64,000 nt of DNA from Candidatus Bathyarchaeota archaeon (GTDB lineage: Archaea; Thermoproteota; Bathyarchaeia; Hecatellales; Hecatellaceae). Both the position numbers and the translations under genes were made by a program. Shown here in pieces: positions 28,649-42,570 of the stretch. Numbering within the stretch: the first letter of the stretch is position 1; every line of letters starts with the position of its first letter. The DNA is taken from assembly GCA_052246995.1 (NCBI GenBank), contig JBQPWD010000004.1:115945-179944 (forward strand), given 5' to 3'. The notes below the pieces were generated by a model. The model was not told the DNA's origin and ran no database searches. It saw only the letters and a list, made by a program, of their open reading frames with translations.

Positions 28649-28658
28649 CTCACCTACA

Positions 28659-30513: not shown

Positions 30514-30816
30514 TTACTGAAGCTTTTTAATTATCTCAGCTCTAAGCTCGTCATTTGTTTTTCCTTCAGGGTCTATTCCAAGCTCTTTGGCAACTTTAAC
30601 AAGTTTTTCTCTTGTTTCTAAATCTATAGTTTTTGATTGCGGTTTTGACTTATCTGTAGATTCCCCTTTCAGCTCTTTTTCAATATCCATTTTTCCACGT
30701 TCAAACTCCATCCTAGCTCTTCCAAGAGCTCTTGCAAGTTCAGGTATCTTTTTTGCTCCAAAAATCAATATTAGTGCAAGAAAAATTAGGATAAGCCATT
30801 CCTGACCAATAACCAA
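30514..30816 (-). CDS. tatA: Sec-independent translocase TatA/E
   Basis: 100 aa. A TM helix followed by 'FGAKKIPELARALG'. Confidence 0.8.
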   Translation of the reverse strand: MVIGQEWLILIFLALILIFGAKKIPELARALGRARMEFERGKMDIEKELKGESTDKSKPQSKTIDLETREKLVKVAKELGIDPEGKTNDELRAEIIKKLQ

Positions 30817-30876
30817 AATTTATCACCAATTAAGATTGAGACAATTTTAGTTAATATATAGTAGTATTTTAACTTT

Positions 30877-31920: not shown

Positions 31921-32388
31921 TTAACCGTGTATAAGTTTTCTTGCTTCCCCTCTGGGTATGTAGCGGAGAGCTCCTGTTGTACAAAACTTAACACACCACG
32001 GGTCTCCTTCACATAAGTCACATTTGTAGGAAACTTTAAGTGTAGAATCATAGTGTGGTATGCTTATTGGGCATGCAAAATTGCATGACCTACATCCGAT
32101 ACACTGTGTAGTGTTAATTTTGACAATCCCCTTTTCATCCTTTCTTATAGCATTAACAGGACATGATGATTCACATGCTGGATATTCGCAGTGGGCACAG
32201 TGTGCTGAAATAAAGTATGCAAATTTATCAGGGTTTGGAAAAACTTTTACATGAGATTTGTCCTCAGATATGACCTTGAAGTGTTTAAAAGAACATACAA
32301 CCATACAAAGTAGACAACCACTACACTTTTCAGGGGTATAGTAGAGAACTCCTTGCTCTTCAGGTTTAACTATTTTTTGAAAACTCAT
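31921..32388 (-). CDS. HycB/DmsB-like poly-ferredoxin (four Cys-cluster motifs)
   Basis: Four motifs: 'CSGCLLCMVVC', 'CAHCEYPACESSCP', 'CIGCRSCNFACP' and 'CDLCEGDPWCVKFC'. Confidence 0.75.
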   Translation of the reverse strand: MSFQKIVKPEEQGVLYYTPEKCSGCLLCMVVCSFKHFKVISEDKSHVKVFPNPDKFAYFISAHCAHCEYPACESSCPVNAIRKDEKGIVKINTTQCIGCRSCNFACPISIPHYDSTLKVSYKCDLCEGDPWCVKFCTTGALRYIPRGEARKLIHG

Positions 32389-32390
32389 TT

Positions 32391-32636
32391 TTAACCCCTC
32401 CCCAGAAGTGTTTTAAACTCTTCATGTACTTTTACAAGCCTTTCGGCTAAAGCCTTCTCTTCTTCACTACCAACTTTGGAGAAAAAATCTTTAACCAGCT
32501 TCTCAAGTTCTTCAAGGTTTTTTGCTTCACTAAAAAGTTTTAAATAAAGATTTACAATTTTTGTTCTTAAATGGTATCCTACGTAAAGTTTTGCTATTCT
32601 CCTTAAATTATCCTTAACTAGGTAGGTTACCTCCAA
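32391..32636 (-). CDS. small helical protein, unknown (hydrogenase operon member)
   Basis: 81 aa, no Cys. It fits exactly between the small-subunit and ferredoxin genes, with gaps of 19 and 2 nt. Confidence 0.45.
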   Translation of the reverse strand: MEVTYLVKDNLRRIAKLYVGYHLRTKIVNLYLKLFSEAKNLEELEKLVKDFFSKVGSEEEKALAERLVKVHEEFKTLLGRG

Positions 32637-32655
32637 CCTTTTTCCACCAACCTAA

Positions 32656-33096
32656 CTAGACTTTTTCTTTTAACTTTTGAATTGCCAACGCTATTCCATG
32701 AATAATTGCTTCAGGTTTAGGTGGACATCCTGGAACATAAACATCAACAGGGATAATTTTGTTTACAGGACCTCCAAACCCATAGCTTACATAATCACCT
32801 TCACCATAAAACACCCCTCCTGTTAATGCGCAAGAACCTACAGCAACAACAACCTTCGGGTTTGGAATCTGTTCATAAACTCTTTTTAAAGCTTTTGTTA
32901 TATGTTTTGAAACTTGGCCTGCAACAACAAGGATATCCGCCTGTCTAGGAGTACCTGTAAGCCTTATACCAAGTCTTTCAACATCATATCTTGGAGTTAA
33001 ACATGCAACAATCTCTATGTGGCAACCGTTACATCCGCCACATGGTGTAAACATTATCCAAGGAGACTTGGCTCTTGACCAGGCTTTTAAACCCAA
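32656..33096 (-). CDS. group-4 [NiFe] hydrogenase small subunit (NuoB/HycG-like)
   Basis: 146 aa. Has 'CGGCNGCHIEIVAC', 'GSCALTGG' and 'VPGCPP'. Confidence 0.85.
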   Translation of the reverse strand: MGLKAWSRAKSPWIMFTPCGGCNGCHIEIVACLTPRYDVERLGIRLTGTPRQADILVVAGQVSKHITKALKRVYEQIPNPKVVVAVGSCALTGGVFYGEGDYVSYGFGGPVNKIIPVDVYVPGCPPKPEAIIHGIALAIQKLKEKV

Positions 33097-33109
33097 AATG
33101 GTAAACCCC

Positions 33110-33658
33110 TTAATAATACTTTCTTGGATGGTAATTAAGTCTAAAACTAAGCTGCTTTCTACACGTTGAACAATATTTAGAGTAAACTTGGAAGTCTTTT
33201 TCTATGGTTTCTTTTTGAGAAACGTTAATTTTACTTAAACCCCTATCTCTAACCTTTAAAATTTGAGGTTCTGGAGCAAAATACCGTCCACAGTTTTCAC
33301 ACACAGCTTGGTTTACCTCAACAACCTCCTTGGCCTGATTTAAATCATAAACTGCAAGCTCAAACTTACTTGTAAGCATGATAGCGTCTTCAGGGCATAC
33401 TTCTTGACAGGTTGCACAGTAAAGACATTTTCCAAGGTTAACTTCTATTTTTCTTTTACCGTTTTCTTCTACTATTGTTATAGCTTCAGGGGGGCAGCAA
33501 TTAAAACATCCACCACAACCAACACACTTTTCTCTGTCAAACTCAGGTTTACCACGCAAACCTTCAGGTAAGTAAGCAGGTGGACCGAAAGGATACTTTA
33601 TTGTTACACATCGAGCTAAGCTTTTAAATGCCTCAACCAAAACTTTTAGATTAACCAT
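33110..33658 (-). CDS. 2x[4Fe-4S] subunit (NuoI/HycF-like)
   Basis: 'CVGCGGCFNCCP' and 'CLYCATCQEVCP', plus a C-terminal CxxC...CxxC. Confidence 0.8.
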   Translation of the reverse strand: MVNLKVLVEAFKSLARCVTIKYPFGPPAYLPEGLRGKPEFDREKCVGCGGCFNCCPPEAITIVEENGKRKIEVNLGKCLYCATCQEVCPEDAIMLTSKFELAVYDLNQAKEVVEVNQAVCENCGRYFAPEPQILKVRDRGLSKINVSQKETIEKDFQVYSKYCSTCRKQLSFRLNYHPRKYY

Positions 33659-35402
33659 TTTCCACTCGCCTCGACTTAAGTCTTGATTTTTCAGCTAGCA
33701 TACTAAAGCTAACAGGTTTAACCTTTTTTTCTTTAATATCCTCCAAAACTATCATTATGGAGCGGTCGGTACATGCCAAGCAGGGATCTATGCTTGCAAT
33801 AATTATAGGTGCATCAGCAATTGTTTGGTCTCTAAGCATGTAAAGTGTTGATGGGTTGTTTAGGAAAGATGGTGTTCTAATTCTAACTCTATCAGGAATA
33901 TGGGTTCCGTTAGACCTAATGTAATATGTTAATTCACCTCTTGGGGCTTCAACCCTGCCAATAGCTTCCTTTCCTTCTGGAAATTCTTTGGGAATTTCAG
34001 ATTGAATCGGTCCACTTGTTTTTTGTAGGAAGTCTAAACATTGCCTGCATATACTTATACTCTGTAAAAGTTCTAAAAGTCTAACTATAACCTTTGCGTA
34101 CACATCCCCATCAGATTGTGTGATCACATCCCATGAAGTTTCCCTGTAAGCTAGATACGGGTCGTCTTTTCGAACATCAATTCTTACGTTTGAACCCCTA
34201 GCGGTAGGCCCAACAACACCAACTTCTTTTGCCGCATCTTTTGTTAAAACACCAATTCCAATTGTTCTTTTACGGATTAACGGTTCGCTTGTTGCAATAT
34301 CAATATACTTTTTAGTTGCTTTTTCTAACACGTCAAGCGTTTTCTCGATTTTTGGTATCATATCACGGGTTATATCTCTACGAACACCACCAATAGTGTT
34401 CATTGCGTGATTTACCCTGTTACCGGAAACCATTTCAAAAATATCTAAAACATGTTCCCTGTCTCTCCAGAACCACATAAAAGCTGTTTTATAACCTATC
34501 AAATCCATGCCTACACCAGCCCATAAAAGGTGGCTGTGGATTCTTTCAAGCTCTTTAATCAACGTTCTAACATACCTTCCCCTGTCCGGCAGTTCTATGT
34601 CTCCAAGCATTTCAACAGTTCTACAGTATGCTGAAGTGTGTGCATGTGAACAAATTCCACAAACACGCTCCGAGATGTATATGTTTCTCCAGTAGCTTCT
34701 TTTTTCCATAAGCTTCATTATACCTCTATGGTTAAAGCCTGGCTTCATATCTGCCTCAACAATTTTTTCACCATCAACTTTTAACCTAAAATACCAAGCT
34801 TCAACTAGAAGTGGATGGAAAGGTCCTATTGGAACAATCGACAACTCAGGCTTACCCTCAACATCAACCGGTAAAGGTATCCACTTTCCAACTTTTTTAC
34901 GCTGTTCTTCTGCAGAATGTTCCATTACTTTTTCTACTTTTACCTCCTCAACTTCACCTGGCCACTCATAAGGTAAAACAAAGTGACGAGGATCTATCAG
35001 TTCTTCAAACGTTATACCGTTAAGCTCACCCATCTCTCTTTCAGCATAAACTGCTGAGTAGTAAATGGGTGAAACTGAGTCTACACTAGGTGTTTCGCGT
35101 GAAAGTGTTGTTTTAACGGTTAAGGTTAAGCTTTCATCAAAGGTTTTGTCCTTGTAGTCAAATGCGTAATGGTAAAGCACCTCAAAACCCTTAAAGTCAA
35201 GGTCGTTTACAGATATGGTTACAAGCCTAGCATCAAACTCTCCTTTTAAAAGCTCGGCTACTGGTTTAACAGCATTATTCTTAACATTAACATAAACCCT
35301 TTTTTCCCTTCCCACATACTCGCCAAGGTAATCTTCTTTTAACTTTTCCCTTAACCTTGAGATAACTGCTTCTAAAAGTGTACCTTCTTTTTGTTTTTCC
35401 AT
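33651..35402 (-). CDS. group-4 [NiFe] hydrogenase large subunit, NuoC-NuoD fusion (HycE/HyfG-like)
   Basis: 583 aa. NuoC-like N-domain, Ni-Fe ligand motifs 'RVCGICSHAH' and 'DPCLACTDR', and about 35 residues after the C-terminal motif. Confidence 0.9.
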   Translation of the reverse strand: MEKQKEGTLLEAVISRLREKLKEDYLGEYVGREKRVYVNVKNNAVKPVAELLKGEFDARLVTISVNDLDFKGFEVLYHYAFDYKDKTFDESLTLTVKTTLSRETPSVDSVSPIYYSAVYAEREMGELNGITFEELIDPRHFVLPYEWPGEVEEVKVEKVMEHSAEEQRKKVGKWIPLPVDVEGKPELSIVPIGPFHPLLVEAWYFRLKVDGEKIVEADMKPGFNHRGIMKLMEKRSYWRNIYISERVCGICSHAHTSAYCRTVEMLGDIELPDRGRYVRTLIKELERIHSHLLWAGVGMDLIGYKTAFMWFWRDREHVLDIFEMVSGNRVNHAMNTIGGVRRDITRDMIPKIEKTLDVLEKATKKYIDIATSEPLIRKRTIGIGVLTKDAAKEVGVVGPTARGSNVRIDVRKDDPYLAYRETSWDVITQSDGDVYAKVIVRLLELLQSISICRQCLDFLQKTSGPIQSEIPKEFPEGKEAIGRVEAPRGELTYYIRSNGTHIPDRVRIRTPSFLNNPSTLYMLRDQTIADAPIIIASIDPCLACTDRSIMIVLEDIKEKKVKPVSFSMLAEKSRLKSRRVENG

Positions 35403-35406
35403 TTTT

Positions 35407-35997
35407 TTACCACCTTAAAAGCATAAGCTTACGAACATCCAAACTTTTTGTTCGTTTATACAAAAGAAGTGCTAAACCCATAACCAGAATAATGGTCGCT
35501 GTTTTTATTATAACTAAGCTAATCTCAACACTAACTGGAAACTCTACTCCTAGCATTAGAGTGTGAGTTGCGTTATTTAGGAGGGTTAAACCGAGTCCAA
35601 GCTTTACTAGGTCAGCTTTAGCAAGCATTGTATAAATTCCAATAACAAATAAAGGAATAGCCGTTAACATCCTAGGGTCGGTAAAGTTTAGAAAAGCATA
35701 AACCGTGAAGACACCAATTAAGAAGAGCAGAATTGAAGACGATGTTAATCCGTCTATAAAAGGCTCCTCTGAGAGGCTTTTAGTCTTTCTAATTGTTAGG
35801 TAAATAACTAGTGGAAATACTATAATGAGAGAAATAACTGAAAGAAGAAAACTCTGAGTTGAAAGCTCCTGATAGAAAACTGAAACCAAGAGAATACCTT
35901 GAACAAGAAGACAAGTTGTTGATACATACAGGTTTCTATGTTCACATATAGCCATACCAAGAACGGTTGCAACAATAATTACAGGGGTTAAATCCAT
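35407..35997 (-). CDS. small polytopic membrane subunit (HyfE/NuoK-like)
   Basis: 196 aa, about 6 TM. Its position between the NuoH-like and large-subunit genes matches the hyf order. Confidence 0.5.
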   Translation of the reverse strand: MDLTPVIIVATVLGMAICEHRNLYVSTTCLLVQGILLVSVFYQELSTQSFLLSVISLIIVFPLVIYLTIRKTKSLSEEPFIDGLTSSSILLFLIGVFTVYAFLNFTDPRMLTAIPLFVIGIYTMLAKADLVKLGLGLTLLNNATHTLMLGVEFPVSVEISLVIIKTATIILVMGLALLLYKRTKSLDVRKLMLLRW

Positions 35998-36007
35998 AAT
36001 TTCCCAC

Positions 36008-36952
36008 CTAAACCATAATTACAGCCAATATTAAGCCTGCAAGAGACAAACCTAAAATTCCAGTTAAATACCATTTAAAAGCCTGGTCAATTCGAAAACG
36101 TGGATTTGCAGTATGAACTATAACCATTAAAACAACAACAAAAGTCATTTTTGCCAGAAACCATAAAACATTCCACGGGAAGGGTAAACCATCTCCACCA
36201 CCAAGAAAGAGGTTTGTAAACAAAGCGCTAAAAACCACCCATTTAACAAAGATTGAAAGTCTAAAAACTCCATAGAGAGGTCCACCGTATTCAACATATG
36301 GGCCAGCAATAATTTCTTGTTCAGCTTCAGATACATCAAAAGGTCTGAGAGCAAGTTTTGCAAGCAAACAGATAAATAAGACTACAGCTGCAAACGGGTT
36401 TAAAACTAAGAACCATGTATTCCTAATTTGATAATTTACAATTTCCCAGAGACTTAACGACTTCACCACGATTGCTGGAGCTAAAACTGCTAAAACAAAT
36501 GGAAGCTCTTCAGCTATAAGAAGACTTACTTCCCTACTTGCTCCAACAGCACCATACGGAGAACTTGACGAACCTCCAGCTATAACCAATGCTATTGAAG
36601 GTATTATAAGAAAGTACGCTATGACAATTACATCCCCAGCAAAGCCTACTGGAGAGGGTAAACCAAAAGGTATAAGGGTTACAGCACAAAGAAGAGAAGC
36701 TAAACTTAAAAGTGGAGCTATAACCATGTACGGCTTATAGGCAGTTATAGGGATTATCTGCTCCTTAAAGAAGAGTTTGAAAACATCTGCAAACGACTGG
36801 TAAAACGGTGGCCCCCTCCTTGATTGAATTCTGGCTTCAAGCTTTCTTTTTAACCAATCATACATTCCTCCAAGCAGAAAAGAAAACATGAGACCTGGAT
36901 ACACGATAAAACTAAAAATGCTTATTCCTATAAGCTCGTACACAATAATCAC
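36008..36952 (-). CDS. NuoH/HycD-like membrane subunit
   Basis: 314 aa, about 8 TM. Has 'RRGPPFYQSFADVFKL' (the NuoH-type RxGP...Q.faD.~Kl motif). Confidence 0.8.
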   Translation of the reverse strand: MIIVYELIGISIFSFIVYPGLMFSFLLGGMYDWLKRKLEARIQSRRGPPFYQSFADVFKLFFKEQIIPITAYKPYMVIAPLLSLASLLCAVTLIPFGLPSPVGFAGDVIVIAYFLIIPSIALVIAGGSSSSPYGAVGASREVSLLIAEELPFVLAVLAPAIVVKSLSLWEIVNYQIRNTWFLVLNPFAAVVLFICLLAKLALRPFDVSEAEQEIIAGPYVEYGGPLYGVFRLSIFVKWVVFSALFTNLFLGGGDGLPFPWNVLWFLAKMTFVVVLMVIVHTANPRFRIDQAFKWYLTGILGLSLAGLILAVIMV

Positions 36953-36953
36953 C

Positions 36954-38717
36954 TTAAACCATGGTAAACGTAAACAACATCATTAAAGTTAAAACCACTA
37001 TATACAACAAGTAGTGAGGTAGGAAGCCTGTATGGATTGCTCTAACAACCCTTAAAAAAGGATATGCTGCAAAGCTGAAGGGTGATGAAGAAACCTTTGC
37101 TTCCTCAACCTTTAGGTATGGTGGTGTAACCAATCCACCAGTAAACGGCAAAAACTTGTCAGATGTAGGAGGATATTTAAGAGGCTTTGCCGTTAGCTTG
37201 TAAATAGCAAAGATTACCACAACTCCAAAAAATAGTAGAAATGCCCCCCACGCAGCATACCAAGACCCAACATCCGTAACAAGGAAGAATAAACTTGCAA
37301 CCAACTGCACCTCGCCCCTAACAAGCATGGTTGTTGCTGGAACAATAAGATAAGAAAGCGGAAATCCTGGAACAACGCCAAAGAGAATGCATAGTGATGC
37401 TAGTATCACCATTGGAATGTACATAAGCGGAGAAACTTCTTTTACATTAGAGAGTTTTCCCGGTAGAGAAAGAAAGATGGAATGTATAACCTTCATGAAC
37501 GATATGAGCGTAAGTGCACTTACAAGCATCCCAACTCCTGCAAGTAAAGGTGCACCAGCCTGAATACATGCCTCATAGATTATCCACTTACTGCTAAACC
37601 CGCTAAACGGAGGAATTCCTGAGATTGAAAGTGAAGCAATTGTCATAGTTACGGCGGTTATAGGCATATGTCTAGCTAAACCACCTAACCTGTCCAGGTT
37701 TGTTTCACCAGTTGCATGTTCAACAGAGCCTGCACATAGATACAGTAATCCTTTATAGATTGCATGATTTAGCGAATGGAATAAACCTCCTATTATACCC
37801 AGCGGGGTTCCCAGCGAAACACCCATAACCATATACCCCATTTGGCTTATAATGTGATAGGAAAGGAGTCTCTTAACATCGCGTTGGAGAAGAGCCATGA
37901 AAACTCCAACAAGCATTGCACCTGCGCCAATCCAGGCCAAAAAATGGTTAACAGGGCTAAGTACACCATACGCATGGTAAACTATCCTAATTAGAGGAAT
38001 TAAGACAACATAAGGGCTTAGCTTAATGGTTGAAACCGCAAGCAACGCCCCCACTGGGGATGGTGCCTCGGAAAAAGCATCGGGAAGCCATGTATGTAGA
38101 AGTATTAATGGAACTTTAACCCCAAAGCCTATTACAATCAGCGCTAAGGCAGTTTTGAACAGCATTCCTTGAAGTTGCGTGTTGTACAGGCATGATAAAT
38201 ACAACGTTCCTGTTTGTAAATATAAAATGAGAATGCCGGCTAACGCGATAAAGCCCGCCAATGTACATTGAAAAATGTATTTTAACGCTGCCTCCAAAGA
38301 AGAGTTTCTTCTATAATATAGTATAAGAACTGCCGAGGAAATTGTTGTTAACTCGATAAAGATATAAAGCCATAAAAGATCCCATGAAACTGCAACACCA
38401 ACCATGCTGCCAGTAAACAGTAAGCTAAAACAATAATATTCACCAGCTTTTTCCTTTGTAAACTCTAGTGAATATATAAGTACCAAGAAACTCATAAACG
38501 CAGGAACCAGAGCTACAAACATTGTTAAATCATTAATGGAGAAAGAGAAGACTGAAGCTAACCTAACATTTCCACTAAAATTAGCAAGTATAAGTATAAA
38601 CGAGGTTAGCGAAACAAGTATAGAAAAAATTCCTGAGACTTTTCCACTTACCTTGCCTACATAATAAGCAACAGGTGCACCAACGAACAAAAGTGTCAAA
38701 GCAAGTAATAGTAACAT
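36954..38717 (-). CDS. NuoL/HycC/HyfB-like antiporter-type membrane subunit
   Basis: 587 aa, at least 14 TM. Has 'LHTWLPDAFSEAPSPVGALL' (the Mrp/NuoL motif). Confidence 0.8.
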   Translation of the reverse strand: MLLLLALTLLFVGAPVAYYVGKVSGKVSGIFSILVSLTSFILILANFSGNVRLASVFSFSINDLTMFVALVPAFMSFLVLIYSLEFTKEKAGEYYCFSLLFTGSMVGVAVSWDLLWLYIFIELTTISSAVLILYYRRNSSLEAALKYIFQCTLAGFIALAGILILYLQTGTLYLSCLYNTQLQGMLFKTALALIVIGFGVKVPLILLHTWLPDAFSEAPSPVGALLAVSTIKLSPYVVLIPLIRIVYHAYGVLSPVNHFLAWIGAGAMLVGVFMALLQRDVKRLLSYHIISQMGYMVMGVSLGTPLGIIGGLFHSLNHAIYKGLLYLCAGSVEHATGETNLDRLGGLARHMPITAVTMTIASLSISGIPPFSGFSSKWIIYEACIQAGAPLLAGVGMLVSALTLISFMKVIHSIFLSLPGKLSNVKEVSPLMYIPMVILASLCILFGVVPGFPLSYLIVPATTMLVRGEVQLVASLFFLVTDVGSWYAAWGAFLLFFGVVVIFAIYKLTAKPLKYPPTSDKFLPFTGGLVTPPYLKVEEAKVSSSPFSFAAYPFLRVVRAIHTGFLPHYLLYIVVLTLMMLFTFTMV

Positions 38718-39596
38718 TTATCCTTTCCCCTCCAGCTTGTTTAAAAGTCTTGTTGCACGAATCCTCCTAAAAATAGAGCCTAGGGATGTAGCTGAAAATC
38801 CTTGAGCTAAAGCTACAAGTTCAAGCAGGTTCATACATGGAATATCATAAACGTAGCCTTTTTCTCTAAGGAATAGTTGAGCCATTTCAAGGAAGTTGAG
38901 ACATGCAGGACATATAAGGGCTATACAGTCAGCCTCAACCTTTTTAACCTCGTCAAGCTTAACCTTAGCCCGTTCATTATAAGCGTAATCTAGGTTTAGA
39001 AAGCTTGTTGGGAAACCGCAACAGATCCTCTCACTTTCGTAAGGCAAAATCTGGCAGCCTATTACTTCGGCTATTTTTTTAAGCTTTTTCTGTAGGTTTA
39101 ACTCTTCATCAAACTTTCTAAGCTTACAACCAGGTTGAAGACAAACTTTAATGTTTGTTAAAGGCTTAACCACGGTATTTTCCAACCTTTTTAATCCTAC
39201 ATCGTCGTATAAAACTTCCAGTATGTTTTTAACATTAACTTTACCAATATATTCTAAACCATAATTTGAAAGTATTCGATTAACCTTTTCATTTACCTCC
39301 TTATCCTTCTCTAAAATTTTTTTAGCCTCAAACAAAGTTTCAAAACAACCGTTACAAACAGTAAAAACATCATAACCAAGCTTCTCAGCCAAAGCTAAGT
39401 TTCTAGCGGCCAAGGTAATCCACATCAACTCATCAACAACCCTTGGAATATCTGTTGGAGGACAGCAAGAAGCACCTTCAACATCATAAACTACAACACC
39501 AAGTTTTTCAAGAACTTTTCTGGTGGCAGATTCAACATAAGGTTGGAGCGATGGAATAAAACATCCAAGAAAAAATGAATATTCCAACCTTTTCAT
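38718..39596 (-). CDS. hdrB: heterodisulfide-reductase subunit B-like protein (two CCG domains)
   Basis: 292 aa. 'YSFFLGC...GASCCPP...VCNGCF' and 'QPGC...RICCGFP...ICPAC' give two C..CC..CxxC CCG motifs. Its stop codon abuts the start of the NuoL-like gene. Confidence 0.8.
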   Translation of the reverse strand: MKRLEYSFFLGCFIPSLQPYVESATRKVLEKLGVVVYDVEGASCCPPTDIPRVVDELMWITLAARNLALAEKLGYDVFTVCNGCFETLFEAKKILEKDKEVNEKVNRILSNYGLEYIGKVNVKNILEVLYDDVGLKRLENTVVKPLTNIKVCLQPGCKLRKFDEELNLQKKLKKIAEVIGCQILPYESERICCGFPTSFLNLDYAYNERAKVKLDEVKKVEADCIALICPACLNFLEMAQLFLREKGYVYDIPCMNLLELVALAQGFSATSLGSIFRRIRATRLLNKLEGKG

Positions 39597-39601
39597 CTTC
39601 G

Positions 39602-39892
39602 CTAATATCTTAACTTTCCTTTCTCCAAGTCAAAACCAATTTTTTCATCAAACATTAACTTTTTAGCAATATCCTGAATTTGCTTAGTTGCAAAAGTATG
39701 TTTGTATGCTGTTGGGGGGATATCAGGCAATCCAAGCTTAACCCGCCTACCTTTCCAAACCTCAAGGAATTCTTGAACATGCCCTGTTAAGAGGATATTA
39801 GATACAGGAAATCTGAATTGATGTGGAAGAAAACCCTTAATATCCTTTCTTAAAGGGTATAATCGCAAGTTTTCCTCTAAACTATTTCCCAT
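39602..39892 (-). CDS. cysteine-free 96-aa protein, possibly related to the C-terminal tail of HdrC
   Basis: First ORF of the operon, 5 nt upstream of hdrB. The pattern '..TGH..(20)..LGLPDIPPT..(25)..GFDLEKGKL' resembles, from memory, the Cys-free C-terminal extension of HdrC. There is no ferredoxin domain. Confidence 0.4.
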   Translation of the reverse strand: MGNSLEENLRLYPLRKDIKGFLPHQFRFPVSNILLTGHVQEFLEVWKGRRVKLGLPDIPPTAYKHTFATKQIQDIAKKLMFDEKIGFDLEKGKLRY

Positions 39893-39954
39893 GTTTTATC
39901 CTACACCACAAGAAGGCATAGAAGCATTTTCAAACTACTACTTTATCCTAAAAT

Positions 39955-39966
39955 TTTTATATAAAA
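39955..39966. promoter_or_regulatory. palindromic TATA-like element in the divergent intergenic region
   Basis: Perfect 12-nt palindrome TTTTATATAAAA, 63 nt upstream of the 96-aa ORF. A second CATATAAAAG follows. Confidence 0.3.
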
Positions 39967-40104
39967 TTTTTCATATAAAAGAAGTTGACATACAACATTC
40001 ACAAAACCAAAAACTGGTTAGGAGATAAAAGAACAAAATATTTTTTAGTCTTAACAATAGCAATATTATGTGATTGGCGGTTAAAAACGTGTGAGGGGAT
40101 ATAA

Positions 40105-40554
40105 ATGGTTGTTTTAGATGGCTATGAGTTTCCTGAAGACTTATACTATACACCTGAAGATGGTGTTGGAAATTCATGGGCAAGGATTGAAGCTGATGGA
40201 AGTGTAACAGTAGGGATTGATGATTTCTTCCAAAAGACAGCTAAAAGCATAAGGTACGTTGACCTTCCATTTGAGGGAGACAAAGTTGAGCAAGGTAAGG
40301 CTTTTGCAACTGTTGAGTCTGAAAAATGGGTTGGTCAAGTAACAGCCCCAGTTTCCGGTGAGGTTTTAGCTGTAAACAACAAGGTTCTTGAGAAGCCTAA
40401 ACTTGTAAATGAAGATCCCTACAGGGATGGTTGGCTTATAAAAGTTAAACCCGAAAAACTTAATGAAGAAATTAAAAACCTTGTTCATGGTGTAGACGGT
40501 ATTAAACAGCTTTACCGTAAAAGCGTGGAGAAGTATCTTAAAAAGAAGGGGTGA
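40105..40554 (+). CDS. gcvH: GcvH-like lipoyl-carrier protein
   Basis: 149 aa. 'ATVESEKWVGQVTAPVSGEVLAVNNKVLEKPKLVNEDPYRDGWLIKV' retains the lipoyl-Lys context ES-x-K...PVSGEV...DPY..GW. Confidence 0.8.
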   Translation: MVVLDGYEFPEDLYYTPEDGVGNSWARIEADGSVTVGIDDFFQKTAKSIRYVDLPFEGDKVEQGKAFATVESEKWVGQVTAPVSGEVLAVNNKVLEKPKLVNEDPYRDGWLIKVKPEKLNEEIKNLVHGVDGIKQLYRKSVEKYLKKKG

Positions 40555-40560
40555 GGTTTT

Positions 40561-41289
40561 TTGAGAATTCTTTTCTGGAGTGGCTGTCTTGCCAAAAGAA
40601 GAATGCCTGAGTCTGTTAATGCTGCATTAAAAATACTGGAAAAATTGGGATACGAGGTTGTAAAACTTGGTAATGAAGGGTGTTGTGGGGATCCGTTGAT
40701 GTTAGCAGGATACACGCAATATGCACTAGAAAATGCTAAAAAAGTTGCTGAAATGGTAAATGGTGCTAATGTTGACCTTATTGTTACAGGTTGTGCTGGA
40801 TGTTATAGAGGTTTTAACGAGTATGAGGATTACGGTGTAGAAATTCCTAAACCCAAACACATGGTTCACATTGTTGCTGAAAACCTTAATAAAATAAAGT
40901 TTAAGCAAACAGAAAAGGAAAAAATTGTATACCACGACCCTTGCGAGCTTGGACGTTGGAGTGGTGTTTACGAGGAGCCTAGAAAAGTTTTACGTAGTAT
41001 TGCTGATGTTGTTGAACCTTTGCTTTCAAAGGATGAGGCTCGTTGTTGTGGTGGAGGAGGAGGAATGCTTACAATAAAGGCTGATTTAAGTATTAGAGTT
41101 GGAGAGATAAGGATTGAAAGAGACATAGAGCCTACAGGTGTCAAAAAAATTGTTACAGCTTGTCCAGCCTGCTATTCAACTTTAAGTCTTGCTGCAGGTA
41201 AAAGATGGGTTGCAACTGGAAGAAAAAAAGATGAAAGAATAGAGGTTTTTGATTTTTCGCAGTATGTTCTCTCAAAAATGGAGGTGTAA
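40561..41289 (+). CDS. LutA/GlpC/HdrB-type CCG-domain Fe-S oxidoreductase
   Basis: 242 aa. 'WSGC...EGCCGDP...GCAGCY' and 'HDPC...ARCCGGGGG...ACPACY'. TTG start 6 nt after GGGGTGAGG. Confidence 0.75.
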   Translation: MRILFWSGCLAKRRMPESVNAALKILEKLGYEVVKLGNEGCCGDPLMLAGYTQYALENAKKVAEMVNGANVDLIVTGCAGCYRGFNEYEDYGVEIPKPKHMVHIVAENLNKIKFKQTEKEKIVYHDPCELGRWSGVYEEPRKVLRSIADVVEPLLSKDEARCCGGGGGMLTIKADLSIRVGEIRIERDIEPTGVKKIVTACPACYSTLSLAAGKRWVATGRKKDERIEVFDFSQYVLSKMEV

Positions 41290-41292
41290 AAA

Positions 41293-42570
41293 TTGAGTGT
41301 TAAAGTTAATTTTGATAAATATTTTGACGATCTTACCCAAAAATCTTATGAGGCTTTCTTGCAGAGAGCCATTGTCCGTGCAAGAACAGCATACTGGGAT
41401 AGACGTCGTGTGAACTTTCCAAAGCTTAAGTATGTTGAAAAATGGTGTGAGGAGCTTAAAGGTATTAGAAGGGTTGCTCTTGACAAGTTTCTAGACTATG
41501 TAAAGATGGCTAGAGACTGGATGGAGTCAAGAGATATTAGAACTCATTGGGCTAAAGATGCGGCTGAAGCAAACAAGATAATTTATGAATTGTTTAGTAG
41601 CTGGAGGGCTAAAAAGGTTTTTAAGGTTAAAAGCATTGCAAGCGAAGAAATTGGAATGAATGAGTATTTAGAGGAACGGGGAATTAAAGCTTGGGAAACT
41701 GATGTTGGTGCTGTTATTCTCCAGTTAATGCATGGAAAAGCTATGCATCCAACAGGTGTTTCTATTGCTGTTGCTAGGGAGGTTGCAAAAGAATATCTTT
41801 CCAAGTTTCTTGGGAAAGACCTGCCAGCGGATCCGGCAGCTTTAACTAAAGCCACTTGTGATTGGGTTAAAAAAGCAGTTCCTGAGGCAGACGCGGTGTT
41901 TTCCGGTGCTAATGCTATTGTTGCTGAAACAGGTGAAATCTGGGTTCTGGAAAATGAAGCTAATGGCAGGCTTGTACTTGCCCAACCAAAGCCCTATGTT
42001 TGTTTAGCTGGAATTGAAAAGGTTTATCCGACGAGATATGCTGCTTTGCTTTACGCATCAATTATGCCTGTCTATGTAACTGGTGCCGCAGCCATAGACA
42101 ATATAACCATTATTGGCGGTAAAAGTGCATCAAACGATATTGAAAGAGTTAGAGTTTCACCAGCAACTGGACATGAAGAAATACATGTTGTCTTCCTTGA
42201 TAATGGAAGAACAGCAATGCTTAAAGATCCAGACTTCCAGGTAATGCTTACATGTTTAAAATGTGGTGCATGCTTAATGGATTGTCCAATGTGGAATACT
42301 GTTGCAGGATACTTTGGTGAACATGTATACATGGGGGCTTTTGGGATTGTATGGACAGCATTTACCAGAAGCTTAGAGGATGCAGCACCTCAAGCATATA
42401 CATGTGTACTTTGTGGTAGATGTAAGGATATGTGCCCAATGGGTATAGACCTTCCGAGGTTAATTAAAAGGTTACGTCAAAAACTTGTTGAAAAAGGGAT
42501 AGTTCCGCAACAGCTTCAGGTAATGTCTGAAAACATATTGAAGTATGGTTCACCTTACGGCTTAACATAA
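41293..42570 (+). CDS. LutB-like LUD-domain protein with C-terminal 2x[4Fe-4S] (HdrC-type) domain
   Basis: 425 aa, colinear by eye with B. subtilis LutB. Has 'ETDVGAVILQL', 'NAIVAETGEIWVLENEANGRL', 'VVFLDNGR', 'CLKCGACLMDCP' and 'CVLCGRCKDMCP'. TTG start after GGAGGTG. Confidence 0.8.
   Translation: MSVKVNFDKYFDDLTQKSYEAFLQRAIVRARTAYWDRRRVNFPKLKYVEKWCEELKGIRRVALDKFLDYVKMARDWMESRDIRTHWAKDAAEANKIIYELFSSWRAKKVFKVKSIASEEIGMNEYLEERGIKAWETDVGAVILQLMHGKAMHPTGVSIAVAREVAKEYLSKFLGKDLPADPAALTKATCDWVKKAVPEADAVFSGANAIVAETGEIWVLENEANGRLVLAQPKPYVCLAGIEKVYPTRYAALLYASIMPVYVTGAAAIDNITIIGGKSASNDIERVRVSPATGHEEIHVVFLDNGRTAMLKDPDFQVMLTCLKCGACLMDCPMWNTVAGYFGEHVYMGAFGIVWTAFTRSLEDAAPQAYTCVLCGRCKDMCPMGIDLPRLIKRLRQKLVEKGIVPQQLQVMSENILKYGSPYGLT

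What the first reader, a model, noticed from the sequence alone, without database searches (positions are those of the whole stretch)
31921..39892. Hyc/Hyf-like group-4 [NiFe] hydrogenase operon headed by an HdrB-type CCG protein instead of a formate/CO-oxidising module
Seen: ten minus-strand ORFs run from 39892 to 31921 with abutting or overlapping boundaries. The 96-aa ORF and hdrB are 5 nt apart, 38718/38717 abut, 36954/36952 are 1 nt apart, 35407/35402 are 4 nt apart, and 33651-33658 overlap. The gene order is:
1. 96-aa Cys-free ORF
2. HdrB-like protein with two CCG motifs
3. NuoL-like subunit
4. NuoH-like subunit
5. HyfE-like subunit
6. NuoC+D fused large subunit with intact RVCGICSHAH and DPCLACTDR
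7. 2x[4Fe-4S] subunit
8. NuoB-like small subunit
9. 81-aa ORF
10. HycB-like poly-ferredoxin

Known: the core mirrors E. coli hycCDEFG/hyf, whose electron-input partner is formate dehydrogenase. HdrB CCG clusters are the disulfide-reducing site of heterodisulfide reductase.

Inference: no fdh, CODH or hdrA is present. HdrB may therefore be the peripheral catalytic module of a membrane-bound, possibly ion-translocating H2:disulfide (or thiol:proton) oxidoreductase.
Basis: partly seen in the sequence, partly recalled or inferred. Interest (0 to 1): 0.8.

Follow-up and report, generated by a model that had tools for sequence, protein, structure and literature searches.

The report
HdrB-coupled membrane hydrogenase operon (Ehd-type)
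This is a real ten-gene operon for a membrane-bound nickel-iron hydrogenase wired to a disulfide-reducing HdrB module, a kind already predicted from other archaeal genomes but never tested biochemically; its neighbours suggest the disulfide it acts on is the lipoyl arm of an adjacent GcvH-like protein.

Summary
Ten tightly packed minus-strand genes (39892-31921) encode a complete group-4 [NiFe] hydrogenase plus HdrB, and the window has no fdh, CODH or hdrA.

- The 96-aa "Cys-free ORF" is the C-terminal arm of HdrC, without its ferredoxin domain.
- In about 60 related loci this arm is fused to the hydrogenase's NuoC domain.
- In 79 of 80 related genome loci, hdrB sits beside a group-4 large subunit. 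A HycB-like polyferredoxin accompanies it wherever the upstream flank is present.
- Hydrogenase-linked HdrBs form one clade that includes the published Ehd of Methanosuratincola.

The arrangement is not new. Drh (2015), Ehd (2019), and Ehe, Ehg and a Bathyarchaeia "Ehd-like" clade (2022) describe HdrB-interacting group-4 hydrogenases. All are predicted from genomes only. This cluster is a new member of that kind.

What this analysis adds:
- The divergently transcribed GcvH-like protein keeps its lipoyl lysine.
- It belongs to an E[ST]xKWVG subfamily. In metagenomes, 40 of 56 loci of at least 4 kb have a CCG-domain protein within 3 kb.
- A lipoyl-lysine GcvH-like gene lies within about 3.5 kb of roughly half the membrane-type clusters, across several phyla.

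A lipoyl protein is therefore my preferred substrate. This is inferred, not shown.

The parts
39893..40104 (.). AT-rich divergent intergenic region between the hydrogenase operon and the gcvH-lutA-lutB-like operon. It carries TATA-like TTTATATA elements and is the likely promoter region for both.
   Evidence: Sequence read. The function is inferred; no archaeal promoter model was run.
39602..39892 (-). HdrC C-terminal arm. 96 aa, no Cys, no ferredoxin domain.
   Evidence: TIGR03290 HdrC positions 78-144, E 1e-6. phmmer against PDB HdrC: 8rvu_c residues 110-184 of 185, E 2e-5; 5odc_C residues 115-183. Stand-alone or NuoC-fused homologues lie directly upstream of hdrB in nearly all related loci.
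38718..39596 (-). HdrB-type subunit with two CCG domains. It carries ten conserved Cys for two non-cubane [4Fe-4S] clusters and is the proposed dithiol/disulfide site.
   Evidence: Pfam CCG x2, E 2e-25. TIGR03288 230 bits. PDB HdrB 8rvu_b 203 bits and 5odc_B 194 bits, full length. C12, C44, C45, C81, C84, C157, C192, C193, C229 and C232 are invariant in alignment A1. It falls in the hydrogenase-linked HdrB clade.
36954..38717 (-). Antiporter-like membrane subunit (MbhH/NuoL/MrpD type) with about 12 TM segments.
   Evidence: Proton_antipo_M, E 8e-63. Best PDB hit is MbhH 6cfw_H at 197 bits, with the TM5 Glu, TM7 Lys, TM8 His/Lys and TM12 Lys aligned and conserved. TM count.
36008..36952 (-). 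NuoH/HycD-like membrane subunit with about 8 TM segments.
   Evidence: Pfam NADHdh, E 1.6e-75. TM count.
35407..35997 (-). HyfE-like / NuoK-like small membrane subunit with about 6 TM segments.
   Evidence: NF008556 hydrogenase 4 membrane subunit, E 2e-8; Oxidored_q2, E 7e-7. TM count.
33651..35402 (-). [NiFe] large subunit, a NuoC-NuoD fusion (HycE-like). L1 motif RVCGICSHAH (34638-34667), L2 motif DPCLACTDR (33762-33788), and a 36-residue C-terminal extension.
   Evidence: Complex1_30kDa + NiFeSe_Hases + Complex1_49kDa. Best PDB hits are E. coli HycE 7z0s_E at 289 bits and MbhL 6cfw_L at 257 bits. Motif positions.
33110..33658 (-). HycF/HyfH-like 2x[4Fe-4S] subunit (NuoI type).
   Evidence: NF009053 formate hydrogenlyase iron-sulfur subunit, E 6e-34. 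Two CxxCxxCxxxC motifs.
32656..33096 (-). NuoB-like small subunit carrying the proximal [4Fe-4S] cluster. It has no twin-arginine signal, so it faces the cytoplasm.
   Evidence: Oxidored_q6, E 3e-34. NF005012 at 149.5 bits, above its cut-off of 116. Cys19, 22, 89 and 124 lie in the CxxC...GxC...GCPP pattern.
32391..32636 (-). 81-aa charged helical protein of unknown role.
   Evidence: No Pfam or NCBIfam hit. Among the loci searched it is found only in the 80%-identical relative L007, at 129 bits.
31921..32388 (-). HycB-like polyferredoxin with 16 Cys, enough for 4x[4Fe-4S]. It is the proposed electron wire between HycF and HdrB, replacing the missing ferredoxin domain of HdrC.
   Evidence: Fer4_11, E 1.7e-16. 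Cys pattern. It co-occurs with hydrogenase-linked hdrB in nearly all of the 80 loci, wherever the upstream flank is present.
40105..40554 (+). GcvH-like lipoyl-carrier protein of the E[ST]xKWVG subfamily. The lipoyl Lys74 is at 40324-40326. It is the candidate dithiol/disulfide substrate of HdrB.
   Evidence: GCV_H, E 4e-35. NF002270 at 124 bits, above its cut-off of 117, but below the TIGR00527 equivalog cut-off. The Lys column is conserved in cluster-adjacent homologues. The subfamily neighbours CCG proteins in 40 of 56 metagenome loci of at least 4 kb.
40561..41289 (+). LutA-like protein with two CCG domains, co-transcribed with the GcvH-like gene.
   Evidence: CCG x2, E 1.2e-30. It matches the C-terminal halves of TfrB and LdhH.
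41293..42570 (+). LutB/LldF-like protein (LUD domain plus 2x[4Fe-4S]). No LutC is present.
   Evidence: LUD_dom + Fer4_8. TIGR00273 at 283 bits, below its cut-off of 445.

Best explanation

**Shown by sequence:**
- An intact NiFe large subunit (a NuoC-NuoD fusion).
- A NuoB-type small subunit and a HycF-type 2x[4Fe-4S] subunit.
- A 16-Cys HycB-type polyferredoxin.
- Three membrane subunits (NuoH-like, MbhH/NuoL-like, HyfE-like).
- A full HdrB with both CCG cluster sites.
- The HdrB-clasping C-terminal arm of HdrC, without HdrC's own Fe-S domain.

**Inferred mechanism:**
- Electrons pass NiFe site <-> NuoB cluster <-> HycF clusters <-> polyferredoxin <-> the two non-cubane clusters of HdrB. At HdrB a disulfide is reduced, or a dithiol oxidised.
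- The HdrC arm anchors HdrB on the NuoC domain.
- The NuoH/antiporter-like arm couples the reaction to ion translocation.
- Thermodynamics favours H2 oxidation with disulfide reduction. For lipoamide, E0' is -290 mV against -414 mV for H2, about -24 kJ/mol, enough for roughly one ion. At low H2, or driven by the ion gradient, the complex could instead evolve H2 from a dithiol.

**Most likely substrate in this non-Ehd-methanogen context (inferred from neighbourhoods only):** the lipoyl group of the divergently encoded GcvH-like protein. That protein would shuttle reducing equivalents between HdrB and other CCG or disulfide enzymes: LutA/LutB here, and GlcD/GlcF, a pyridine-nucleotide disulfide oxidoreductase, or the 2-oxoacid dehydrogenase E1/E2/E3 in relatives.
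For: **Operon structure.** Gaps run from -8 to 19 nt; SD-like motifs precede eight of the nine downstream genes.

**Domain content.**. NiFe motifs intact. The closest solved relatives are HycE and MbhL and MbhH, with the ion-path residues kept.

**HdrB identity.** HdrB scores 203 bits to solved HdrB, and all 10 Cys are invariant. The 96-aa protein corresponds to HdrC residues about 110-184.

**Conservation of the linkage.**
- 79 of 80 genome loci found with the HdrB profile carry a group-4 large subunit beside hdrB, in five gene orders and several phyla. A Fer4_11 protein is present too wherever the upstream flank is held.
- NuoC::HdrC-arm fusions occur in about 60 loci.
- Hydrogenase-linked HdrBs form one NJ clade that includes the Methanosuratincola Ehd and Odin/Hermodarchaeota clusters.

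**Published precedent for the concept.** PMC9723716, PMC12700198, PMC6046458.

**Lipoyl link.**
- A GcvH-like gene with a conserved Lys lies within about 3.5 kb of roughly half of the membrane-type clusters, in three different relative positions.
- The E[ST]xKWVG subfamily sits within 3 kb of a CCG protein in 40 of 56 metagenome loci of at least 4 kb.
- In L001 and L009 the cluster lies beside 2-oxoacid dehydrogenase genes and a true Lpd with the CLNKGC motif: E1a, E1b and E2 in L001, E1b in the shorter L009 contig.
- The sHdr-LbpA system is a genetically proven precedent for an Hdr-like complex that depends on a lipoyl protein (PMC6067878).
Against: - No biochemical, transcript or structural data exist for this cluster or for any Ehd/Ehe/Drh complex.
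- GcvH linkage is absent from about half of the membrane-type clusters. It is also absent from nearly all of the roughly 45 five-gene clusters that lack membrane subunits, where the nearby GcvH-like protein has Met instead of Lys.
- Several relatives carry a CoADR/Nox-type single-Cys oxidoreductase instead of, or as well as, GcvH. This points to a low-molecular-weight thiol.
- A relative with 55% large-subunit identity lacks hdrB altogether, so the core can work without it.
- The window's GcvH-like protein lacks the two Cys typical of bacterial LbpA.
- The HdrB tree is NJ without bootstrap support.
- The direction of catalysis is unknown.
Confidence: 0.65

Rival explanations
1. Same complex, different substrate. 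HdrB reduces a low-molecular-weight disulfide or persulfide, such as CoA disulfide, polysulfide/persulfide, an unknown thiol cofactor, or CoM-S-S-CoB. The neighbouring GcvH-like protein would belong to the LutA/LutB system only.
For: - In Methanosuratincola, the published Ehd sits next to mtaBC with no GcvH nearby. This is consistent with CoM-S-S-CoB as substrate there (PMC9723716).
- CoADR/Nox/NSR-type oxidoreductases with the YSRC[AG]LP[FY] motif abut the clusters in Methanomethylicia, Nezhaarchaeales and Hermodarchaeota.
- A rhodanese lies next to GcvH in L001 and L009.
- GcvH linkage is missing from about half of the membrane-type loci.
Against: - The window HdrB lacks the CCPAPG and CCGAGGG signatures that all six methanogen HdrB references share.
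- No CoADR-like gene, rhodanese or sulfur-carrier gene was found near the cluster in the window.
- GcvH is the gene that recurs with this clade in types A, B and C.
Confidence: 0.25
2. The CCG protein is not a disulfide reductase here. It would be an electron-entry module for an organic substrate, as with LutA, GlcF, SdhE or TfrB. The complex would then be, for example, a 2-hydroxyacid:proton or succinate:proton oxidoreductase that evolves H2.
For: - CCG domains occur in LutA, GlcF, GlpC, SdhE and TfrB, and SdhE is the second-best NCBIfam hit at 132 bits.
- LutA/LutB-like genes are divergently adjacent in the window, and GlcD/GlcF follow GcvH in type C loci.
- Kohtz et al. raised succinate or CO as donors for Ehe.
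Against: - The protein is full-length HdrB-like: 230 bits to TIGR03288 and 203 bits to solved HdrB.
- It retains the HdrC arm specific to Hdr.
- It has no flavin or substrate-binding domain of its own.
- Lactate or succinate oxidation to H2 is strongly endergonic (established thermodynamics).
Confidence: 0.07
3. The hydrogenase is essentially a ferredoxin-dependent Mbh/Ech-like proton reducer that takes electrons through the polyferredoxin. HdrB would be a dispensable or regulatory add-on.
For: - L088, with 55% large-subunit identity, keeps the core and Fer4_11 but has no hdrB or HdrC arm.
- The nearest solved relatives are the FHL and MBH complexes.
Against: - hdrB, the HdrC arm and Fer4_11 are retained together in nearly all of the 80 loci, across phyla and gene orders.
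- The HdrC arm is covalently fused to NuoC in about 60 loci.
- All 10 cluster Cys are invariant.
Confidence: 0.05

Closest known systems
Ehd / "Ehd-like" HdrB-associated group-4 [NiFe] hydrogenase. Described in Methanomethylicia by Borrel et al. 2019, cited here via PMC9723716. The Bathyarchaeia "Ehd-like" clade is from Kohtz et al. 2022.
   Same: - The subunit set matches that of the Methanosuratincola cluster (L091): antiporter-like, Fer4_11, a small protein at the HdrC-arm position, HdrB, NuoCD, NuoH, HycF and NuoB.
- The window HdrB falls in the same NJ clade.
- The proposed function is the same: H2:disulfide oxidoreduction coupled to ion translocation.
   Different: - The gene order differs. 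Here hdrC-arm and hdrB come first and the polyferredoxin comes last.
- The window cluster has an extra HyfE-like subunit and an extra 81-aa gene.
- The large subunit is only 43% identical.
- The host is a Bathyarchaeia MAG, and the window shows no methyltransferase or methanogenesis context.
- A GcvH-like/LutAB operon is adjacent, whereas the paper says Ehd-like clusters lack GcvH.
Ehe of Culexarchaeia (Kohtz et al. 2022, PMC9723716)
   Same: - It is an HdrB-linked membrane group-4 hydrogenase in a non-methanogen.
- GcvH is encoded in the cluster.
- The authors already suggested that the GcvH lipoyl disulfide could be HdrB's partner.
   Different: - Ehe is co-located with SdhA, CdhA and HdrA2B2C2, none of which is in this window.
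- No Culexarchaeia sequence was compared directly here.
Drh, the "disulfide-reducing hydrogenase" of Methanocellales (Lyu & Lu 2015, cited here via PMC6046458 and PMC9723716)
   Same: - The core is a group-4-type NiFe hydrogenase plus HdrB.
- It is transcriptionally up-regulated in syntrophic coculture.
   Different: - Drh lacks the antiporter-like subunit, which this cluster has.
- Its host is a methanogen that uses CoM-S-S-CoB.
E. coli formate hydrogenlyase (Hyc/Hyf, group 4a; PDB 7Z0S)
   Same: - HycE is the best solved match for the large subunit, at 289 bits.
- HycF-like, HycB-like, HycD/NuoH-like and HyfE-like subunits are all present.
   Different: - There is no FdhH. HdrB plus the HdrC arm occupy the peripheral position.
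- The antiporter-like subunit is closer to MbhH than to any other solved antiporter-like subunit.
HdrABC-MvhAGD heterodisulfide reductase (PDB 5ODC, 8RVU)
   Same: - HdrB is full-length, with both non-cubane cluster sites.
- The HdrC C-terminal arm is retained.
   Different: - There is no HdrA, so no flavin-based bifurcation.
- There is no HdrC ferredoxin domain.
- The electron partner is a membrane group-4 hydrogenase, not the soluble group-3c Mvh.
- The sequence context of the CCG motifs differs: CCPPTD and CCGFPTS here, against CCPAPG and CCGAGGG.
sHdr-LbpA sulfur-oxidising system (Cao et al. 2018, PMC6067878)
   Same: - An HdrB-type CCG enzyme is genetically linked to a GcvH-like lipoyl protein.
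- Reduction of the lipoamide by Hdr has been proposed.
- Metagenomic neighbourhoods of the KWVG subfamily (HdrA, HdrB/HdrD-like proteins, tandem GcvH copies, rhodanese) resemble shdr-lbpA clusters.
   Different: - There are no sHdr HdrA/C1/C2 genes.
- No DsrE, TusA or lipS/slpl genes were seen in the window.
- The GcvH-like protein has no Cys, whereas bacterial LbpA has two conserved Cys.
- The redox partner is a hydrogenase.

Membership tests
Group 4 membrane-bound [NiFe] hydrogenase | Large subunit with the L1 (RxCGxCxxxH) and L2 (DPCxxCxxR/H) NiFe-binding motifs | tested here: met
   RVCGICSHAH at aa 246-255 and DPCLACTDR at aa 539-547. The NiFeSe_Hases and Complex1_49kDa domains are present.
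Group 4 membrane-bound [NiFe] hydrogenase | NuoB-type small subunit with four Cys for the proximal [4Fe-4S] cluster, plus a NuoI/HycF-type subunit | tested here: met
   Oxidored_q6, E 3e-34, with C19, C22, C89 and C124. HycF-like subunit with two CxxCxxCxxxC motifs.
Group 4 membrane-bound [NiFe] hydrogenase | NuoH-like and antiporter-like membrane subunits encoded with the catalytic subunits | tested here: met
   NADHdh, E 1.6e-75, and Proton_antipo_M, E 8e-63. About 8 and 12 TM segments respectively. The MbhH alignment keeps the charged residues.
Group 4 membrane-bound [NiFe] hydrogenase | H2 oxidation or evolution activity | not testable with these tools
   This needs enzyme assays.
Ehd-type HdrB-interacting group-4 hydrogenase (Ehd/Ehe/Drh/Ehd-like) | hdrB, with an hdrC remnant, encoded inside the hydrogenase operon | tested here: met
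   The gap from hdrB to the antiporter-like gene is 0 nt and the gap from the HdrC arm to hdrB is 5 nt. The same set is present in the Methanosuratincola Ehd locus L091.
Ehd-type HdrB-interacting group-4 hydrogenase (Ehd/Ehe/Drh/Ehd-like) | Subunits cluster phylogenetically with those of described members | tested here: inconclusive
   The HdrB NJ tree places the window sequence in one clade with L091 (Ehd) and all other hydrogenase-linked HdrBs, apart from methanogen HdrB. The tree has no bootstrap support. No maximum-likelihood large-subunit tree against HydDB, Ehe or Drh references could be run.
Ehd-type HdrB-interacting group-4 hydrogenase (Ehd/Ehe/Drh/Ehd-like) | Antiporter-like subunit present (this distinguishes Ehd and Ehe from Drh) | tested here: met
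   The gene at 36954-38717.
Formate hydrogenlyase (group 4a, Hyc/Hyf) | Formate dehydrogenase H as the electron-input subunit | tested here: not met
   No molybdopterin or Fdh protein is present in the cluster or among the annotated window ORFs.
HdrABC-type heterodisulfide reductase | HdrB with two CCG motifs (10 Cys) for two non-cubane [4Fe-4S] clusters | tested here: met
   The ten Cys are invariant across 16 sequences, including M. maripaludis HdrB. The full-length match to 8rvu_b and 5odc_B is about 200 bits. The score of 230 is below the TIGR03288 equivalog cut-off of 345.
HdrABC-type heterodisulfide reductase | HdrC ferredoxin domain (2x[4Fe-4S]) and the bifurcating flavoprotein HdrA | tested here: not met
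   Only the Cys-free C-terminal arm of HdrC is encoded. No HdrA is present in the window.
LbpA (Hdr-associated lipoate-binding protein) | Conserved lipoyl-lysine, and genetic linkage to hdr-like CCG genes | tested here: met
   Lys74 lies in the ESEKWVG motif and aligns with the E. coli GcvH lipoyl Lys. The gene is divergently adjacent to hdrB and co-transcribed with a CCG protein. In metagenomes, 40 of 56 subfamily loci have a CCG protein within 3 kb.
LbpA (Hdr-associated lipoate-binding protein) | Two conserved Cys that are absent from GcvH (Cao et al. 2018 note exceptions among archaeal LbpAs) | tested here: not met
   The window GcvH-like protein contains no Cys. The criterion comes from PMC6067878.
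LbpA (Hdr-associated lipoate-binding protein) | Dedicated sLpl(AB)/LipS1/LipS2 lipoylation genes nearby | not tested
   None was noticed among the annotated window genes. Not every ORF was scanned and the rest of the genome was not examined.
Canonical glycine-cleavage H protein | Meets the GcvH equivalog model and is linked to gcvP/gcvT | tested here: not met
   TIGR00527 scores 103.5, below its cut-off of 115.85. Only the broader subfamily model NF002270 passes, at 124 against 117. No gcvP or gcvT is near it.
LutABC lactate-utilisation system | LutA, LutB and LutC all present | tested here: not met
   LutA-like and LutB-like genes are present. There is no second LUD-domain (LutC) gene in the operon, and enolase follows on the opposite strand.

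The most novel reading that the evidence does not exclude
The physiological "disulfide" of this hydrogenase, and of its non-methanogen relatives, is the protein-bound lipoyl group of a dedicated GcvH-like carrier of the E[ST]xKWVG subfamily. The complex would then be an ion-translocating H2:lipoyl-protein oxidoreductase. Lipoyl-GcvH would act as a general low-potential dithiol electron shuttle between CCG-domain enzymes in anaerobic archaea. Those enzymes are HdrB-hydrogenase, LutAB, GlcDF and Hdr-like complexes, together with pyridine-nucleotide disulfide oxidoreductases or 2-oxoacid dehydrogenases.
Probability: 0.35. Interest if true: 0.75.

Novelty: new member of a known kind. Interest (0 to 1): 0.45.

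Why it matters
HdrB-coupled group-4 hydrogenases are spread across Bathyarchaeia, Hadarchaeia, Methanomethylicia, Nezhaarchaeia, Baldrarchaeota and Asgard archaea. Yet none has been purified. Their substrate in non-methanogens is an open question, stated as such in the literature (PMC9723716).

This cluster is a clean, complete example in a non-methanogenic context. A candidate substrate protein is encoded next door. That makes a concrete experiment possible: test H2-dependent reduction of a lipoylated GcvH-like protein.

If the lipoyl-carrier idea holds, it would add a new energy-conserving reaction, and a new role for lipoate, to anaerobic archaeal metabolism. If it does not, the cluster is simply one more Ehd-type operon.

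Tried and rejected
- **Fpo/Nuo-like complex without hydrogenase activity.** A Bathyarchaeia paper annotated a related operon as fpo with hdrB2 (PMC8407382). Rejected: both NiFe motifs are intact.
- **CCG protein as SdhE, GlpC or LutA rather than HdrB.** Rejected on scores and on the presence of the HdrC arm.
- **HdrC N-terminal half hidden as a pseudogene upstream of 39892.** The 212-nt AT-rich spacer holds only a 70-aa ORF with no Pfam hit. Arm-only HdrC is the rule in relatives.
- **The "Lpd-like" neighbours in Methanomethylicia, Nezhaarchaeales and Hermodarchaeota as dihydrolipoamide dehydrogenase.** Rejected: they have the single-Cys CoADR/Nox motif. A true Lpd (CLNKGC) occurs only in L001 and L009.
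- **The 200-aa GcvH-like proteins near the five-gene clusters lacking membrane subunits as lipoyl carriers.** Rejected: they have Met at the Lys position.
- **Bacterial-type promoter and terminator scan.** It gave nothing above chance, and it is not appropriate for an archaeon anyway.
- **A look-up of window ORF 51298-52584.** It failed because of a start-codon mismatch.
- **Borrel et al. 2019.** The paper is not in the held library. Ehd details are therefore second-hand, from PMC9723716.
- **HydDB classification, a maximum-likelihood phylogeny and multimer structure prediction.** None was available.
- Sequence matches to solved HdrB, HdrC, HycE and MbhH were already unambiguous.

Full report
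**1. The observation**

The ten minus-strand ORFs are at exactly the coordinates given. Successive gaps are 5, 0, 1, 10, 4, -8, 13, 19 and 2 nt. Eight of the nine downstream genes have a GGTG/GGAGG-type ribosome-binding motif just upstream; the NuoH-like gene does not.

- a protein with two CCG domains, whose best curated model is HdrB (TIGR03288, 230 bits; next is SdhE at 132 bits);
- an antiporter-like subunit;
- NuoH-like and HyfE-like subunits;
- a NuoC-NuoD fused large subunit;
- a HycF-like subunit, a NuoB-like subunit and a Fer4_11 polyferredoxin.

The NiFe motifs RVCGICSHAH and DPCLACTDR are present, as are the CCP and CCG motifs of HdrB.

No formate dehydrogenase, CODH or HdrA is encoded among the annotated window genes. 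The flanks are housekeeping genes: TatC/TatA, a TRAP transporter, enolase, ribosomal proteins, SepRS and others. A bacterial-type promoter and terminator scan finds nothing above the shuffle expectation inside the cluster.

The window comes from a 202-kb contig of a metagenome-assembled genome, GCA_052246975.1. Its closest relatives are Bathyarchaeia.

**2.

*The 96-aa "Cys-free ORF" is the C-terminal arm of HdrC.*
- It matches positions 78-144 of the HdrC model.
- It matches residues about 110-184 of the solved 185-residue HdrC chains 8rvu_c and 5odc_C.
- The ferredoxin domain of HdrC, with its two [4Fe-4S] clusters, is absent.
- From memory of the HdrABC-Mvh structure (Wagner et al. 2017), this arm wraps around HdrB. 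I could not re-read that paper.

*The gene divergently transcribed from the same 212-nt AT-rich spacer is a GcvH-like lipoyl carrier* (GCV_H, E 4e-35).
- Its lipoyl lysine is intact, in the motif ESEKWVG.
- It is followed by LutA-like (two CCG domains) and LutB-like genes.

**3. HdrB is a genuine HdrB**

- The protein aligns over its full length with solved HdrB chains (203 bits to 8rvu_b, 194 bits to 5odc_B).
- It is 35% identical to M. maripaludis HdrB.
- The ten cysteines that bind the two non-cubane clusters are invariant in a 16-sequence alignment.
- It differs from methanogen HdrB around the motifs: CCPPTD and CCGFPTS here, against CCPAPG and CCGAGGG. This is weak evidence for a different substrate pocket.

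**4. The linkage is conserved and physical**

A profile of the HdrB relatives scanned against one genome per species found 296 relatives. I analysed the best 80 loci. Searching their six-frame ORFs with the window proteins shows a group-4 large subunit beside hdrB in 79 of 80 loci. A Fer4_11 polyferredoxin is present too wherever the upstream flank is held.

Five gene orders occur:

| Type | Loci | Order |
|---|---|---|
| A | window, L007 | GcvH< \| HdrC-arm, HdrB, antiporter-like, NuoH, HyfE, NuoCD, HycF, NuoB, orf81, Fer4_11 |
| B | L001, L009 | as A but without the antiporter-like gene |
| C | L004, L020, L033, L035 and others | Fer4_11, HdrC-arm, HdrB, antiporter-like, NuoCD, NuoH, HycF, NuoB, then GcvH |
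| D | about 45 loci: Bathyarchaeia, Hadarchaeia, a Hodarchaeaceae MAG | Fer4_11, NuoC::HdrC-arm, HdrB, NuoD, NuoB::HycF; no membrane subunits within 8-10 kb |
| E | Methanomethylicia, Baldrarchaeum, Nezhaarchaeales, some Bathyarchaeia | Fer4_11, long antiporter-like, NuoC::HdrC-arm, HdrB, NuoD, NuoH, HycF, NuoB |

In types D and E, the ORF just upstream of hdrB is a fusion. A NuoC-like domain (matching residues about 10-155 of the window large subunit) is joined to the HdrC arm (matching residues 12-96 of the window's 96-aa protein). This occurs in about 60 loci. Such a fusion is strong evidence that the HdrC arm, and with it HdrB, docks on the NuoC domain of the hydrogenase.

Starting instead from the large subunit, I sampled four relatives:
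- An Odinarchaeia relative has the HdrC-arm/HdrB/Fer4_11 set.
- A Hermodarchaeota relative has it.
- A Methanosuratincola relative has HdrB and Fer4_11, with an unmatched 117-aa ORF in the arm's position.
- One Bathyarchaeia relative with 55% identity keeps Fer4_11 but has no hdrB or arm.

A neighbour-joining tree of 119 HdrB homologues places all hydrogenase-linked HdrBs in one clade. That clade includes the window and the Methanosuratincola cluster. It is separate from methanogen HdrB references and from Hdr-like copies. The tree has no bootstrap support.

**5. How it most likely works**

*Shown:* all cofactor-binding motifs for a chain NiFe site, NuoB cluster, two HycF clusters, four polyferredoxin clusters (16 Cys) and two HdrB clusters.

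*Also shown:*
- About 26 TM segments lie in three membrane subunits.
- The antiporter-like subunit aligns best with MbhH of the Pyrococcus MBH (197 bits).
- It keeps the TM5 Glu, TM7 Lys, TM8 His/Lys and TM12 Lys.

*Inferred:*
- The polyferredoxin replaces the lost ferredoxin domain of HdrC and wires HdrB to HycF.
- The complex interconverts H2 with a dithiol/disulfide at HdrB and couples this to ion translocation.

With lipoamide, E0' is -0.29 V (as quoted in PMC6067878) against -0.414 V for H2. H2 oxidation is therefore exergonic by about 24 kJ/mol. The reverse reaction would need low H2 or the ion gradient. The direction of catalysis cannot be decided from sequence.

**6. Which disulfide?**

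*Linkage to the clusters.*
- A GcvH-like gene with a conserved lysine lies within about 3.5 kb of roughly half of the membrane-type clusters.
- It takes three different relative positions: divergent upstream, same strand downstream, and same strand upstream.
- The hosts include Bathyarchaeia, a Thermoprotei MAG, Methanomethylicia, Nezhaarchaeales and Odinarchaeia.

*Its companions are redox enzymes that handle dithiols or carry CCG domains*:
- LutA/LutB in the window;
- GlcD plus a GlcF/HdrD-like protein in type C;
- a pyridine-nucleotide disulfide oxidoreductase in type E;
- in L001, the E1, E2 and E3 genes of a 2-oxoacid dehydrogenase complex and a rhodanese.

*The reverse test.* I scanned metagenome contigs with the E[ST]xKWVG subfamily of GcvH-like proteins. 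Among the 56 loci of at least 4 kb:
- 40 have an HdrB-, GlcF- or LutA-like CCG protein within 3 kb;
- 19 have HdrA;
- 25 have tandem GcvH copies.

These neighbourhoods resemble the sHdr-LbpA clusters of sulfur oxidisers. There, a GcvH-like lipoyl protein is genetically essential, and reduction of its lipoamide by the Hdr-like complex has been proposed (PMC6067878; PMC10332631).

I therefore favour the lipoyl group of the GcvH-like protein as HdrB's substrate here.

*Evidence that tempers this:*
- Half of the membrane-type clusters lack the linkage, as do nearly all of the five-gene type D clusters.
- The type D-associated 200-aa GcvH-like proteins have Met in place of Lys.
- The oxidoreductases next to type E and Asgard clusters are CoADR/Nox-type single-Cys enzymes, not Lpd. 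This fits a low-molecular-weight thiol equally well.
- The window protein lacks the two Cys of bacterial LbpA.

**7. Comparison with what is known**

The arrangement is already described from genomes.
- Lyu and Lu (2015) named a "disulfide-reducing hydrogenase" (Drh) in Methanocellales. It is up-regulated in syntrophic coculture (PMC6046458).
- Borrel et al. (2019) defined Ehd in Methanomethylicia.
- Kohtz et al. (2022) wrote a section on "HdrB-interacting hydrogenases" (PMC9723716). It covers Ehd, Ehe (Culexarchaeia, with GcvH), Drh, Ehg and an "Ehd-like" clade containing Bathyarchaeia. They suggested that GcvH might present the disulfide.
- Ehg is expressed in a cultured Methanonezhaarchaeia strain (PMC12700198).
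- hdrB inside a Bathyarchaeia "fpo" operon was noted in 2021 (PMC8407382).

No member has been characterised biochemically in any paper I could find.

The window cluster has nearly the same subunit set as the Methanosuratincola Ehd locus. It differs in gene order, in the extra HyfE-like and 81-aa genes, and in its GcvH/LutAB neighbour.

**8. Verdict**

But the cluster is a new member of a known, predicted-only kind, not a new kind.

The elements I could not find stated in the held literature are leads, not established facts:
- "HdrC" is only the Cys-free arm.
- The arm is fused to NuoC in most relatives.
- Hydrogenase-linked HdrBs appear to form one clade.
- Five-gene versions without membrane subunits are abundant.
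- A distinct GcvH subfamily is a general neighbour of CCG enzymes.

Interest is moderate. The cluster's main value is as a well-defined test case for identifying the substrate of HdrB-coupled hydrogenases in non-methanogens.

Noticed in passing
L012-L066 and others (e.g. L013:8810-12914): About 45 of the 80 related genome loci carry a compact five-gene version: Fer4_11, a NuoC::HdrC-arm fusion, HdrB, NuoD, and a NuoB::HycF fusion. The hosts are Bathyarchaeia, Hadarchaeia and a Hodarchaeaceae MAG. No NuoH-like or antiporter-like gene lies within 8-10 kb. This looks like a soluble HdrB hydrogenase derived from group 4.
   Followed up: partly
L013:14986-20873; also L024, L037, L038, L043, L046: A conserved block lies 2-5 kb downstream of the five-gene clusters: a 200-aa GcvH-like protein, a GltD-like flavoprotein (Fer4_20 + Pyr_redox_2 + Fer4), MvhD (FlpD) and an HdrA-like protein. 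The GcvH-like protein has Met instead of the lipoyl Lys (ETWMFMFD), so it cannot be lipoylated.
   Followed up: partly
L050:4821-6161, L075:2893-4275, L076:16479-17852, L090:14678-16048: A pyridine-nucleotide disulfide oxidoreductase lies directly next to the HdrB-hydrogenase clusters of Methanomethylicia, Nezhaarchaeales and Hermodarchaeota. It has the single-Cys motif YSRC[AG]LP[FY] of the CoADR/Nox/NSR type, not the Lpd type. In L050 and L075 it directly follows a Lys-bearing GcvH-like gene.
   Followed up: partly
L088:375-7164: A Bathyarchaeia relative whose large subunit is 55% identical keeps Fer4_11 and the whole hydrogenase core. It has no hdrB and no HdrC arm, and tblastn is negative. 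Short hydrophobic ORFs occupy the gap. This suggests modular loss or replacement of the HdrB module.
   Followed up: partly
L092-L171 (e.g. L098, L133, L136, L139: HdrA, GlcF-like, GlcF-like, GcvH, GcvH, Fer4_11): In metagenomes, E[ST]xKWVG-type GcvH-like genes often occur as tandem copies beside HdrA, HdrB and HdrD/GlcF-like genes, and sometimes beside rhodanese. These neighbourhoods resemble sHdr-LbpA clusters. Their host taxa and functions were not determined.
   Followed up: partly
L001:5154-9597 and 16803-17960; L009: In two Bathyarchaeia MAGs the HdrB-hydrogenase cluster (no antiporter-like subunit) lies beside 2-oxoacid dehydrogenase genes. In L001 these are E1 alpha, E1 beta, a true Lpd (CLNKGC), a rhodanese and GcvH upstream, with E2 downstream. 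The shorter L009 contig shows E1 beta, Lpd, rhodanese and GcvH.
   Followed up: partly
window 40561-42570 (+): LutA-like and LutB-like genes are co-transcribed with the GcvH-like gene, and no LutC is present. Together they resemble a split LdhH (L-lactate dehydrogenase large subunit). Their substrate and their relation to the hydrogenase are unknown.
   Followed up: partly
window 32391-32636 (-): An 81-aa charged, helical ORF lies between the small subunit and the polyferredoxin. It has no family match and a homologue only in the closest relative, L007. Other architectures have unrelated 99-121-aa ORFs at comparable positions.
   Followed up: no
window 33651-33761 (-): The large subunit carries a 36-residue extension after the DPCLACTDR motif, as in HycE, which needs a HycI-type endopeptidase. 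No maturation protease or hyp gene was identified in the window.
   Followed up: no
window 27308-31707 (-): TatC and TatA genes follow the operon after a 213-nt gap that contains a T5 run. They are followed by a TRAP transporter whose DctP has a weak twin-arginine signal match. These are probably separate transcription units, and the hydrogenase small subunit has no Tat signal.
   Followed up: no
window 8466-10067 (-): An O-phosphoseryl-tRNA synthetase (SepRS) gene is present. This implies tRNA-dependent cysteine synthesis in this archaeon.
   Followed up: no
L049, L072: Two of the 80 HdrB-relative loci are labelled as bacterial MAGs. L049 (Krumholzibacteriaceae) carries a full five-gene cluster. 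L072 (Deltaproteobacteria) is a 3.5-kb contig with hdrB only. Binning contamination or horizontal transfer was not resolved.
   Followed up: no
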